DNA of 64,000 bases, taken from assembly GCA_964252035.1 (NCBI GenBank), contig OZ176201.1; one strand, given 5' to 3'. Of the stretch, positions 35,501 to 38,500 are shown one piece after another. The stretch's first letter is position 1. Every line of letters begins with the position of its first letter. The stretch comes from Podarcis erhardii. Its lineage: Eukaryota. Made by a program: the position numbers.

Positions 35501-38500
35501 TCTGTGACCAAGGTTATGTTTGTTCTGGCTGCAGCCTTCTATATGATCTGTTCTCAGTGTCTCAATTTTCTTTTCTTGTTTCAAATTCCCTTTCTCATCA
35601 TTTCCTGTCTGTACTGAGATTGCTCTGTATAAAATCTCTACTGATCTCTTCTATGCTAAGCCACAAGGATTCTCTTCCATGATCATTCTCCTTGATCTCT
35701 CTTGAGGTTTCGGTACCCTTCCTCACTTTCTGCTTCTTAGCGCTCTTCATTCTCTGAATTTTGGTGGACTGTTGTTGATTGGTTTCATGCACATCACACA
35801 AATCACTCTCTTTGATGTCTACGCCAAGTGCTCTCCCCCATCTTCACTGTGCTTTAAAGCTAGAACTGCCAATCCAAACAAAAAGAGCTTCCCCACTCCC
35901 ATCTCCTCCCCCTCTCAAGCTCTGGGTCAACTTAGTTATGTTTTTTCAGGAAGACAGCCAAGACCACAGAGTTACCTAGATGCTTCAGGAGTCCCCAATC
36001 CAATTTGAGGTACCTTGTTAATGGTGATTTCCAACTTGGAAATGTGGGAACCTTTCTTGAATCACAGCATTTTGCCTTGTAATTCATGGTGCACCCAGAG
36101 CTGATGTCCTCCTCAAATAGAAAGCTTTCATCACTAGTAGCCATTAATGGCCCTGTCCTCCAATAACTTGTGTAATCACCTTTTAAATCCATCTAAGATG
36201 GTCACCATCACTGCATCCTGTGGCAGAAAACTCCGTAGCTGTGTGAATAAGTACTTCCCTTTCTCCATCCTGAATTAGCTACCATTGTTTCATTGGATGA
36301 CGCTGGCTTCTGGTAATATGAGAGAGGGAGAAAAAAATACCTCTCTGCCCACTTTTTCCACACACCATGCATAATATTATACACCTCTGTCATGCCCTCC
36401 CCATACTCTATATCATTTCAAAATGTGTAGCGTTCCCATTTCTTCATGCTTTGGCCTCTTCTTATTCATCTTCATTGCTTTCTCTCTGTTCTCCTTATTC
36501 CCTTCATTCATCAAATGCTAATCTCCTTACTAAACTGCTGGTCCCTTGTGCAATTTCTCATCTGTGTGCTTTCTCTCTTGCTGCTTATGCCTGGAACTCC
36601 TCTTTGTTCCAGCTTGAAGAAATTATGAATGACACACCTTTTTTCTTCCCTTTCCGTTTGACTTTTTTGACTCTCCTTCGACTTACAGGTCAATTATTAT
36701 CTAGATAAAAAAATTCCTTCCAGTAGCACCTTAAAGACCAACTGAGTTAGTTCTAGGTATGAGCTTTCGTGTGCATGCACACTTCTTCAGATACCTGAAG
36801 AAGTATCAGAAGTATCAGTATTCAGATACCTGAAGAAGTATTCTTCAGGTATCTGAAGAAGTGTGGTATCTGAAGAAGAAGTGTGGTATCTGAAGAAGTG
36901 TGGTATCTGAAGAAGTGTGGTATCAGGTATCTGAAGAAGTGTGGTATCTGAAGAAGTGTGGTATCTGAAGTGTGGTATCTGAAGAAGTGTGGTATCTGAA
37001 GAAGTGTGGTATCAGGTATCTGAAGAAGTGTGGTATCAGGTATCTGAAGAAGTGTGGTATCTGAAGTGTGGTATCTGAAGAAGTATTCTTCAGGTATCTG
37101 AAGAAGTGTGCATGCACACGAAAGCTCATACCTAGAACTAACTCAGTTGGTCTTTAAGGTGCTACTGGAAGGAATTTTTTTATTTTGTTTTGACCATGGC
37201 AGACCAACACGGCTACCTATCTGTAATTATTATCTAGGTTTTGCTTAACTCTTTTGGCTTCGTTTGTGTCCCATTCAGCCAGTTCCTCGCTCTCCTTTTG
37301 TCTCATGCTTTTTGGAGCATGAGCCTGCTGGCTGGGACCTGCACTGTATATCCATGCATGGTGCTGGGTATATTTGGATGATTTTATAAATAATACATTA
37401 TGAGATTATGATATTTTAATCTGTGCTGGGGAAATAATGATTTTCCCAGAGGTAGTTAAGAAATGTGTTGCTGTTCACATAGCCATAGCCCCGGCAGATT
37501 AGGAAAAACAGATAATTTGGCTGCTTACTTAACAACTTGGGCCACTTCACACATGCATGTTTATAATTCATTGACTATAGCATCATGAGATGGCTTCCAT
37601 GTATAAATGAGCTATCACAGATTAATAGACACAGAGGGGATTTTTACAGCACCTGGTGTCACCTCGGATGAAATAAGTGTCTGTAGAGACCTATCATACA
37701 GTCAGCTGAGAGTAATAAGTAATCAAGTCAATAAGTGTAGGCTCGTGTGAAACAGCCGTTCTGAATACTTTTCAGGGTTTTTGCCCCACTGTTATTGTCC
37801 CATATATTGCAAGTTGCTAACTCTAACACTTTCATTAGAACTGTAACAACTTTTAGGAGTTCAGTCAAAGCAACAGCTGCTGAAATCTTCAGTAGCTCAG
37901 CTTTATTTTATTTTATTTTACAGTATACTAACCCAAAAGACCTCGAGCCACAAGAAAAGCTGTTTGTGAGAAATGACTTGATTTTTGAACATTTGGAGGA
38001 GATAGCACCCTTAACATTTTTACGACCCCTTCAAAACCTATTAGCATGAACAGAATACCTCCCTCTGTTGGTTTTACAAGCCTTTTTTTAAAAAATAGGC
38101 ATAATGCTGCAGGTAATTGTGTAGAAAAATATGCATATTAAATATTATGTTTACTGGCATATGTTACAGCATACGATAAGCATTCTCGTTCGGTAAGCAA
38201 TTTTACAGGGGCCTCAAGAATAAAACAGGAAATTAAAGGCAAACCACACTATAACCCACATTTTCAGTCTGTGGGGATTTTAATGGGACTGATTCCAAAG
38301 CTAACTAATGAGAAAATGAATTTCCGAGCACTCTGAAGAAGCATCCTGGACTCATGTGGCTGAATGGGAAACAATGTTCAACCTGGGAATTTAACCTATG
38401 CAGGGTTTCCTTGTCATTCACAGTGTATATTTTATTCAGTCAGCTTTGGAAATGTGCACACAGTCAGTGAGAATATTAAACACAGCATTTCCATGCAAGG

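What the first reader, a model, noticed from the sequence alone, without database searches (positions are those of the whole stretch)
36705..37224. Shared rule across four PLE insertions: the second arm is an inverted duplicate lacking the last 30-41 nt
Seen: the inverted arm lacks the terminal 38 nt (locus 5731), 41 nt (36705), ~33 nt (61601) and 30 nt (61669). In the short elements every full arm begins at (G)GTAT, the 5' strand of HHR stem I. Both arms cover the same sequence, unlike L1 twin-priming, where the arms are non-overlapping. Established: PLEs often insert with inverted terminal repeats and a short 3' tail. Inference: two RNAs held together by the palindromic HHR stems could each prime from one side of the staggered cut, which would link ribozyme dimerisation to inverted-dimer insertion.
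Basis: inference. Interest (0 to 1): 0.68.

Follow-up and report, generated by a model that had tools for sequence, protein, structure and literature searches.

The report
Known Penelope-element tail and inverted arms
Four retrotransposon insertions in this window each consist of two inverted arms, only one of which carries a 30-41-base end piece; this is real, but it is the layout already described for Penelope-like elements.

Summary
All 4 hammerhead-bearing insertions in the window (A 5731-6071, B 36705-37224, C 61601-63206, D 61669-62965 nested in C) have two inverted arms with their 3' ends outward. Each abuts a target-site duplication of 14, 13 or 11 bp; D sits in (TA)n. One arm lacks the last 38, 41, about 33 and 29-30 nt.

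This is the published Penelope-like element (PLE) signature: an adjacent inverted copy plus a 30-40-bp "tail" at one end (Arkhipova 2013, Craig 2021). Frangieh 2024 explained the tail in vitro for an Anolis PLE. That enzyme cuts and extends both target strands, and reverse transcription starts at two internal sites with the tail between them.

D fits that element. Its ORF ATG lies at the start of hammerhead stem II and its tailed end is at +114 (published 111-118).

At C, and less firmly at A, the junction argues against a simple snap-back.

The link to ribozyme dimerisation is not supported. D obeys the rule without a dimer-prone hammerhead, and hammerhead-less PLE clades show the same architecture.

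The two-template SNP test has no power in this window. Novelty: already known.

The parts
5717..5730 (.). Locus A target-site duplication, left copy (right copy 6072-6085)
   Evidence: 14 of 14 identical
5731..5829 (-). Locus A tail-less inverted arm. It runs from the unit start (GTATCTG) to the T-rich tract, holds a complete minimal hammerhead, and has one private G
5831..5926 (+). Locus A partial sense unit. It starts at CTCATACC in the AGCT stem III palindrome and ends inside the tail region (…CTACCTGT)
5927..6071 (+). Locus A terminal sense unit with hammerhead, a pure run of 25 T, and the 38-nt tail 6034-6071
36692..36704 (.). Locus B target-site duplication, left copy (right copy 37225-37237)
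   Evidence: 13 of 13 identical
36705..36795 (-). Locus B tail-less inverted arm (unit positions 91 to 1)
36796..37093 (+). Locus B centre: short alternating snap-back pieces and about 14 tandem copies of a 17-nt piece (unit positions 2-18)
37094..37224 (+). Locus B tailed sense arm with hammerhead; the tail is 37184-37224 (41 nt)
61590..61600 (.). Locus C target-site duplication, left copy (right copy 63207-63217)
   Evidence: 11 of 11 identical
61601..61636 (-). Locus C tail. It is 85% identical over 27 nt to the A and B tails, and is separated from its arm by microsatellites and the nested D
63042..63101 (-). Locus C body of the tailed arm, cut at CATG inside the 14-nt stem II palindrome
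63102..63206 (+). Locus C tail-less sense arm. It starts at TATCTG, holds a complete hammerhead, and ends in the T/A-rich tract against the duplication
61669..61698 (-). Locus D tail (29-30 nt), codons 29-38 of the element's ORF
61699..62319 (-). Locus D tailed arm (621 nt); ORF ATG at 61782
62320..62344 (+). Locus D 25-nt spacer. It repeats the preceding 25 nt and forms a hairpin with the start of the right arm over a 3-nt loop
62345..62965 (+). Locus D tail-less arm. It holds 181 open codons of the ORF's C-terminal tail (62347-62889), the hammerhead core from 62876, the next ORF's ATG at 62882, and ends at +84

Best explanation
These are four ordinary insertions made by Penelope-like-element (PLE) machinery acting in trans.

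Three (A, B, C) are copies of a non-coding element of about 130-145 nt. It carries a minimal hammerhead, a T-rich tract and an AC-rich 3' end. One (D) is a 650-nt terminal piece of a Poseidon-type PLE: the ORF's C-terminal tail, the hammerhead, and the first 84 or 114 nt of the next ORF.

The likely mechanism is inferred from the anatomy plus published in vitro work:
1. The element's endonuclease nicks both target strands 11-14 bp apart.
2. Each 3' end primes reverse transcription inside the 3' region of element RNA. One starts at the distal site and keeps the tail. The other starts 30-41 nt upstream and lacks it.
3. Each cDNA runs toward the RNA 5' end, which in the short elements is at GTATCTG.
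4. One cDNA then switches onto the 3' end of the other, sometimes after a short snap-back or stutter. This gives a head-to-head inverted dimer between duplications.

Shown: the architecture, the duplications, the two end positions and the junction sequences. Inferred: the order of events, the number of RNA molecules, and why each insertion has exactly one tail.
For: Architecture: 4 of 4 loci have arms with 3' ends outward, each abutting a duplication, and one tail of 38, 41, about 33 or 29-30 nt.

Match to print:
- Craig 2021 (passages): an inverted 5'-truncated copy, and a 30-40-bp tail often at one end only.
- Arkhipova 2013 (passages): a 31-bp tail on one inverted repeat, and an inverted repeat 37 bp shorter.
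- Frangieh 2024 (main text): both strands are cut and extended, there are two internal start sites with the tail between them, the start lies 111-118 nt into the ORF, the ORF ATG is at the start of stem II, the cut site is 26 bp after the start codon, and targets are AT-rich.

D matches these descriptors:
- The ATG (62882 / 61782) begins with the last A of the CTGAAGA box.
- The predicted cut is 25 nt after the ATG codon.
- The ends are at +84 and +114.
- The tail is in frame with a longer relative's N-terminus (P0002, 69% identity).
- D sits in (TA)n.

Action in trans: no RT or GIY-YIG domain was found in 142 of 151 window ORFs of at least 75 aa. The 9 left out lie inside loci B, C and D.

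Against a plain fold-back: the C tail-less arm starts 16 nt further 5' than the tailed arm. The A tail-less arm has the hammerhead 5' half and the interrupted T-tract, a combination found in neither sense unit.

In 4 of 4 loci the tail-less arm reaches the unit start.
Against: - B and D have short hairpin-like snap-back pieces at the centre.
- Both D arms stop at the same nucleotide. This needs either a defined RNA 5' end or a fold-back.
- Arms are identical in B (98 of 98) and D (621 of 621), which one template would also give.
- In vitro, the choice of start site did not differ between strands, so 'exactly one tail per insertion' is not explained by the published data.
- With independent choice, one of each in 4 of 4 has probability at most 0.0625 (my arithmetic).
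- No complete insertion has been reconstituted in vitro.
- D could not be aligned to the published PAc element because its sequence is in a closed supplement.
- No Rfam hammerhead model matches either family, even at E up to 10. D's stem I failed my own stem test.
Confidence: 0.6

Rival explanations
1. Self-priming (snap-back). A single cDNA is primed at the distal site, folds back at or near the RNA 5' end and copies itself. The copy stops 30-41 nt short of the start, perhaps at the footprint of the bound protein, and is joined to the other target end. This is the reading proposed by Arkhipova et al. 2013.
For: - Arkhipova 2013 (passages) infers self-priming from palindromes at inverted junctions.
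- At the D centre, the 25-nt spacer pairs with the start of the right arm over a 3-nt loop, and both arms end at the same base.
- In B, each arm's inner end carries an 8-bp/4-nt mini-hairpin (TTCTTCAG-GTAT-CTGAAGAA).
- Arms are identical in B and D.
Against: - The C tail-less arm holds 16 nt (63102-63117) that are absent from the tailed arm. A later central deletion would have to be added to save the model.
- In A, the inverted arm would have to be copied from the terminal unit across a 95-nt loop, yet it has the interrupted T-tract of the partial unit and not the terminal unit's pure run of 25 T.
- The model does not explain why the published second start site coincides with genomic tail-less ends.
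- Both strands are extended in vitro.
Confidence: 0.25
2. Two element RNAs are held antiparallel by the palindromic hammerhead stems, and this RNA dimer is what brings one template to each side of the staggered cut. Ribozyme dimerisation would then cause inverted-dimer insertion.
For: - The short-element hammerhead has a perfect 14-nt stem II palindrome and an AGCT stem III palindrome.
- Its predicted homodimer gain is -17.0 kcal/mol, against -7.5 +/- 3.0 for 200 mononucleotide shuffles; 1 of 200 was as low.
- Minimal PLE hammerheads are thought to act as dimers (Cervera and de la Pena 2014, passages; Weinberg 2019 review, passages).
- An antiparallel dimer would have both 3' ends outward, as the insertions do.
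- The two cut tailed arms end in the two palindromes: A at the centre of AGCT, and C 2 nt past the centre of stem II. This is n=2 and was noticed post hoc.
Against: - D follows the same rule, but its hammerhead has no extended palindrome and no dimer preference (ddG -6.2; 129 of 200 shuffles as low or lower).
- Naiad and Chlamys PLEs lack canonical hammerheads yet show the tandem/inverted structures and the tail.
- Hammerhead catalytic mutants left insertion unchanged in vitro, and the protein is predicted to dimerise by itself. The mutants tested catalysis, not pairing.
- A multimeric transcript gives two start regions without any RNA-RNA contact.
- The idea does not explain why only one arm has the tail.
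Confidence: 0.1
3. The inverted arms are not made at insertion. They would be later fold-back duplications, or assembly artefacts of palindromic repeats.
For: Craig 2021 notes that such structures trouble assemblies. D is a perfect 621-nt palindrome with a 25-nt spacer.
Against: - Duplications flank the whole two-armed structure in A, B and C.
- The same asymmetry recurs in 4 of 4 insertions of two unrelated families.
- D is framed by (TA)n on both sides inside C, whose own duplication is intact.
Confidence: 0.03

Closest known systems
PLE insertion architecture: pseudo-LTRs, an adjacent inverted 5'-truncated copy, and a one-sided 30-40-bp 'tail' (Evgen'ev and Arkhipova 2005 and Arkhipova 2006 as cited; Arkhipova 2013 and Craig 2021 read in passages)
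   Same: Duplications of 11-14 bp, head-to-head arms, a tail of 29-41 nt at one end only, partial tandems (A has 1.66 units), a hammerhead in the repeat, and insertion into a microsatellite (D).
   Different: Three of the four copies are short non-coding elements rather than ORF-bearing PLEs. B also carries a 17-nt tandem array at the junction.
PAc, Poseidon of Anolis carolinensis, characterised in vitro (Frangieh 2024, main text read)
   Same: In D the ORF ATG is at the start of stem II, C3 and G8 of the core lie before the ATG, the cut site is 25-26 nt after the ATG, the tailed end is at +114 (published 111-118), there are two ends about 30 nt apart, and the target is AT-rich.
   Different: No sequence of PAc was available (closed supplement), so identity is untested. 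In vitro the two start sites were used alike on both strands, whereas here each insertion has one of each.
L1 twin priming
   Same: The second nicked strand primes on element RNA and yields an inverted 5' part.
   Different: L1 arms are non-overlapping parts of one RNA. Here the arms cover the same 60-621 nt. That needs two copies of the template region, re-use of it, or copying of one cDNA by the other.
Animal non-LTR retrozymes, proposed to be non-autonomous PLE derivatives (de la Pena 2020, passages; Li et al. 2026 preprint, abstract and passages)
   Same: Short, non-coding, AT-rich, hammerhead-bearing units with longish duplications and partial tandems.
   Different: The hammerhead here is the minimal PLE type, with no Rfam hammerhead match. 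Copies are dispersed inverted dimers rather than long tandem arrays. Neither paper uses the words 'tail' or, outside references, 'inverted' (term searches).
Minimal dimeric PLE hammerheads (Cervera and de la Pena 2014, passages)
   Same: CUGANGA and GAAA boxes, helix I of 5 bp, a long helix II with one unpaired base at its 5' side, and helix III reduced to one pair with a 2-nt palindromic loop. That paper also noted paired motifs 100-700 bp apart on opposite strands.
   Different: Self-cleavage is untested here. In the short element, stem II is itself a perfect 14-nt palindrome.

Membership tests
EN+ Penelope-like element insertion | Target-site duplication of variable length, roughly 8-15 bp | tested here: met
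   14, 13 and 11 bp exact. D lies in (TA)n, so its length is undefined.
EN+ Penelope-like element insertion | Adjacent inverted 5'-truncated copy, head-to-head | tested here: met
   4 of 4 loci.
EN+ Penelope-like element insertion | 30-40-bp tail at one end only | tested here: met
   38, 41, about 33 and 29-30 nt; one tail per insertion in 4 of 4.
EN+ Penelope-like element insertion | Single ORF with RT and GIY-YIG endonuclease | tested here: not met
   No RT or GIY-YIG hit in 142 of 151 ORFs of at least 75 aa. D keeps only the ORF's C-terminal tail and first 28-38 codons. All four are therefore non-autonomous or truncated copies.
EN+ Penelope-like element insertion | Hammerhead motif in the repeat | tested here: inconclusive
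   Core boxes and stems were found by pattern in the short elements. The D core and stem II are present, but stem I failed my 4-bp test. No Rfam hammerhead match at the gathering score or at E up to 10.
Poseidon PAc-type element (D only) | ORF ATG at the start of stem II; cut site about 26 nt after the start codon; RT start 111-118 nt into the ORF | tested here: met
   ATG at 62882 / 61782; cut 25 nt after the ATG codon; tailed end at +114, compared with the text of Frangieh 2024.
Poseidon PAc-type element (D only) | Sequence similarity to the PAc consensus | not testable with these tools
   The consensus is in a supplementary file, which is closed. Only unnamed relatives were found (P0002 69% over 38 aa; P0004 34% over 181 aa).
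Minimal dimeric PLE hammerhead | CUGANGA, GAAA and UH boxes; helix I 4-5 bp; long helix II with an unpaired 5' base; helix III 1 bp with a palindromic loop | tested here: met
   5 of 5 complete short-element copies; descriptor from Cervera and de la Pena 2014.
Minimal dimeric PLE hammerhead | Self-cleavage as a dimer | not testable with these tools
   Only a predicted homodimer energy is available.
Non-LTR retrozyme | Tandem arrays of type I hammerhead units that give circular RNAs | tested here: inconclusive
   Only A has more than one unit (1.66). There is no canonical type I hammerhead match in Rfam. Circular RNA is not testable.
L1-type twin priming | Inverted arms are non-overlapping parts of the element | tested here: not met
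   Arms overlap over 98, 98-100, 60 and 621 nt.

The most novel reading that the evidence does not exclude
The strict 'one tail per insertion' seen in 4 of 4 loci, with the tail-less arm reaching the RNA 5' end in 4 of 4, may reflect a coordinated reaction. A dimeric PLE particle would present both nicked strands at once to a pair of template 3' regions held in two different registers. In hammerhead-bearing families, the palindromic stems II and III would hold the two templates antiparallel and set where the two cDNAs meet. The two cut tailed arms here end inside those palindromes.
Probability: 0.1. Interest if true: 0.65.

Novelty: already known. Interest (0 to 1): 0.25.

Why it matters
The window gives four clean, duplication-bounded examples of the PLE insertion signature, two of them apparently very young (perfect arms).

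It shows that short hammerhead elements carry the same signature as a coding PLE fragment: duplication, inverted arm and one-sided tail. This is direct structural support for the recent proposal that animal hammerhead repeats are mobilised by PLEs. That proposal rested on phylogeny and co-occurrence in what I read.

Two questions stay open in the papers I read. Why does each insertion carry exactly one tail? And are the two arms copied from one template or two? Both can be tested with a genome-wide census and with the published in vitro assay.

As a discovery the rule is not new.

Tried and rejected
- Rfam at the gathering score on the whole window and at E up to 10 on 62840-63210 and 37060-37240: no hammerhead family matched. 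The microRNA-precursor hits at locus C are below their gathering scores and only reflect the inverted arms.
- Folding of the 3' regions and tails: 0 of 5 stretches reached |z| of 2 (z from +0.68 to -1.72), so no stem-loop can be claimed. An 8-nt pairing between body and tail is present in both subfamilies, but without covariation.
- More copies in the window (BLAST; tblastn): none. The two-template test therefore has no power. The only arm differences are two private single-base changes (A, C) and the T-run of A's terminal unit.
- Protein searches for D. One search was too short. One search gave 1 hit among 2 candidates. One search gave 4 hits: one is a translin chimera and one (P0006) is an unrelated low-complexity match.
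- An ATT motif at the nicks: seen at one of the six definable nick sites (B bottom strand) by eye, so there is no pattern.
- Telomerase-like realignment for B's 17-nt array: no complementarity between the cDNA end and the re-entry point, so rejected.
- Other inverted repeats in the window (52717-52854, 8992-9107): these are symmetric MITE-like hairpins without a one-sided tail, not the same phenomenon.
- Papers not held: Lunse 2017 and Pyatkov 2004. They are known to me only through citations.
- No paper found in searches links hammerhead dimerisation to inverted insertion, by title or in the passages I read. I did not read all of them.
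Full report
**Observation.** The window is AT-rich eukaryotic DNA with no N. I do not take it for human. It holds hammerhead-bearing Penelope-type repeats, which the papers I read report as absent from mammals.

Four insertions carry the described pattern:

| Locus | Coordinates | Target-site duplication |
|---|---|---|
| A | 5731-6071 | 14 bp exact |
| B | 36705-37224 | 13 bp exact |
| C | 61601-63206 | 11 bp exact |
| D | 61669-62965, nested in C | lies in a (TA)n tract |

Each insertion has two inverted arms whose 3' ends face outward:

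| Locus | Arm identity | Nt missing from the shorter arm |
|---|---|---|
| B | 98 of 98 | 41 |
| D | 621 of 621 | 29-30 |
| A | 97 of 100, and 68 of 69 | 38 |
| C | 59 of 60 | about 33 |

The missing lengths are. The figure for C is an estimate, because its tailed arm is interrupted by microsatellites and by D.

BLAST and tblastn found no other copy of either family in the window. The four are therefore a complete sample of the window and not a selection.

**What the elements are.**

A, B and C are copies of a short non-coding element.
- It has a minimal hammerhead: a CTGAAGA box, a 14-nt perfectly palindromic stem II, GAAA, an AGCT stem III and a 5-bp stem I. There are 5 complete copies against 0 in 100 shuffles.
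- After the hammerhead come a T-rich tract and an AC-rich end.
- The motif fits the minimal PLE hammerhead described by Cervera and de la Pena 2014 (passages).
- No Rfam hammerhead model matches it.

D is the terminal piece of a coding PLE.
- Its sense arm is open for 181 codons that end inside the hammerhead. These are related to the C-terminus of an unnamed protein (P0004, 34% identity, E 6e-9).
- The next ORF's ATG starts at the last A of the hammerhead core.
- The tail continues that ORF in frame. This is confirmed by an unnamed 189-aa relative (P0002).

No RT or GIY-YIG domain occurs in 142 of 151 window ORFs of at least 75 aa. The 9 not scanned lie inside B, C and D. All four copies must therefore have been made in trans.

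**What is known.** The pattern is in print.
- Arkhipova 2013 (passages) describes an inverted pseudo-LTR completing the insert, a 31-bp tail on one of the inverted repeats, and an inverted repeat 37 bp shorter. The paper proposes self-priming because of palindromes at the junction.
[quoted passage not shown] It reports the same tandem/inverted structure and tail in Naiad and Chlamys elements, which lack canonical hammerheads.
- Frangieh 2024 (main text) purified an Anolis carolinensis Poseidon protein and reports the following:
  - It cuts and extends both strands.
  - It starts reverse transcription at two internal sites, with no homology to the target.
  - The tail is the stretch between those sites.
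  - The start lies 111-118 nt into the ORF.
  - Hammerhead catalytic mutants do not change insertion.
  - The protein is predicted to be a dimer.

D agrees with these descriptors: ATG at the start of stem II, cut 25 nt after the ATG codon, and ends at +84 and +114.

**Mechanism tests possible here.**

*Geometry.* In 4 of 4 loci both arms abut the duplication with their 3' ends. This is what two target-primed reactions predict, but a fold-back predicts it too.

*Junctions*.
- At C the tail-less arm begins at TATCTG, while the tailed arm is cut at CATG, 16 nt further in.
- At A the tail-less arm begins at GTATCTG and carries the interrupted T-tract. The adjoining sense unit starts only at CTCATACC, and the terminal unit has a pure run of 25 T.
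- A plain fold-back copy cannot be longer than, or different from, its template. C therefore argues against a plain fold-back unless a central deletion followed. A does so more weakly, because a fold-back across a 95-nt loop plus a later change of the T-run would also give its structure.
- At B and D the centres hold short hairpin-like pieces, and both D arms stop at the same base. These features fit a fold-back or a defined RNA 5' end.

*Arm identity.* There are 0 differences in B and D, and one private base each in A and C. A and B are otherwise identical to each other, so two random templates would also look alike. Gene conversion between close inverted repeats would blur it further.

*Ribozyme dimer.*
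- The short-element hammerhead is strongly dimer-prone in prediction: -17.0 against -7.5 +/- 3.0 kcal/mol, with 1 of 200 shuffles as low.
- D's hammerhead is not: -6.2, with 129 of 200 shuffles as low or lower.
- Yet D obeys the rule, and so do hammerhead-less clades.

**Verdict on mechanism.** I favour two-sided target-primed reverse transcription from the two published start registers (0.6). The cDNAs would be joined by end-to-end template switching, with occasional snap-back. Self-priming is second (0.25). The ribozyme-dimer bridge is an unneeded addition (0.1). Artefact is unlikely (0.03).

The papers I read do not explain why each insertion has exactly one tail. In vitro, start-site choice did not differ between strands. 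With independent choice, 4 of 4 'one of each' has probability at most 0.0625.

**Novelty.** The rule is already known. The one modest addition is that short hammerhead elements show the full PLE insertion signature. The two retrozyme papers I searched by term do not mention it.

**Unchecked.**
- No eukaryotic genome collection was at hand, so no census of further copies could be made.
- Supplements of Frangieh 2024 (PAc consensus, Fig. S1-S2) were closed.
- Lunse 2017 and Pyatkov 2004 were not held.

Noticed in passing
window 36796-37093: Between B's perfect arms lie alternating snap-back pieces and about 14 tandem copies of a 17-nt piece (unit positions 2-18, the hammerhead's 5' part). There is a perfect 71-nt higher-order duplicate (36878-36948 = 36967-37037). 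This could be RT stuttering at the RNA 5' end or later minisatellite growth; it is unresolved.
   Followed up: partly
window 5831 and 63101: The inner ends of the two cut tailed arms fall in the hammerhead palindromes: at the centre of AGCT in A, and 2 nt past the centre of the 14-nt stem II palindrome in C. This is n=2 and was noticed post hoc.
   Followed up: partly
window 61637-61668 and 62966-63041: C's T-rich tract has turned into (TA)n, (CA)n and (TG)n microsatellites in the tailed arm only. D inserted into the (TA)n, in line with the published microsatellite and AT-rich target bias.
   Followed up: partly
window 62347-62892: D's arm is open for 181 codons ending with a TGA inside the hammerhead, 8 nt after the next ORF's ATG in another frame. 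An unnamed translin-family protein (P0003) has a C-terminal 105 aa that is 93% identical to this stretch, which probably reflects a chimeric gene model elsewhere.
   Followed up: partly
window 52717-52854 and 8992-9107: Two MITE-like hairpin elements of one family (60-nt arms 98% complementary, 18-nt spacer; 41-nt arms 88%, 34-nt spacer). Their ends are symmetric and they have no one-sided tail.
   Followed up: partly
window 11997-12068 (-): tRNA-like sequence, 32.7 bits against a gathering score of 29, with several mismatched pairs. It may be a tRNA gene, a pseudogene or a SINE head.
   Followed up: no
window 37146-37153 with 37201-37208; also loci A and C: An 8-nt complementarity between GTTGGTCT in the body and AGACCAAC in the tail brackets the T-rich tract and the proximal end in both subfamilies. 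There is no covariation, and the fold is not better than shuffles.
   Followed up: partly
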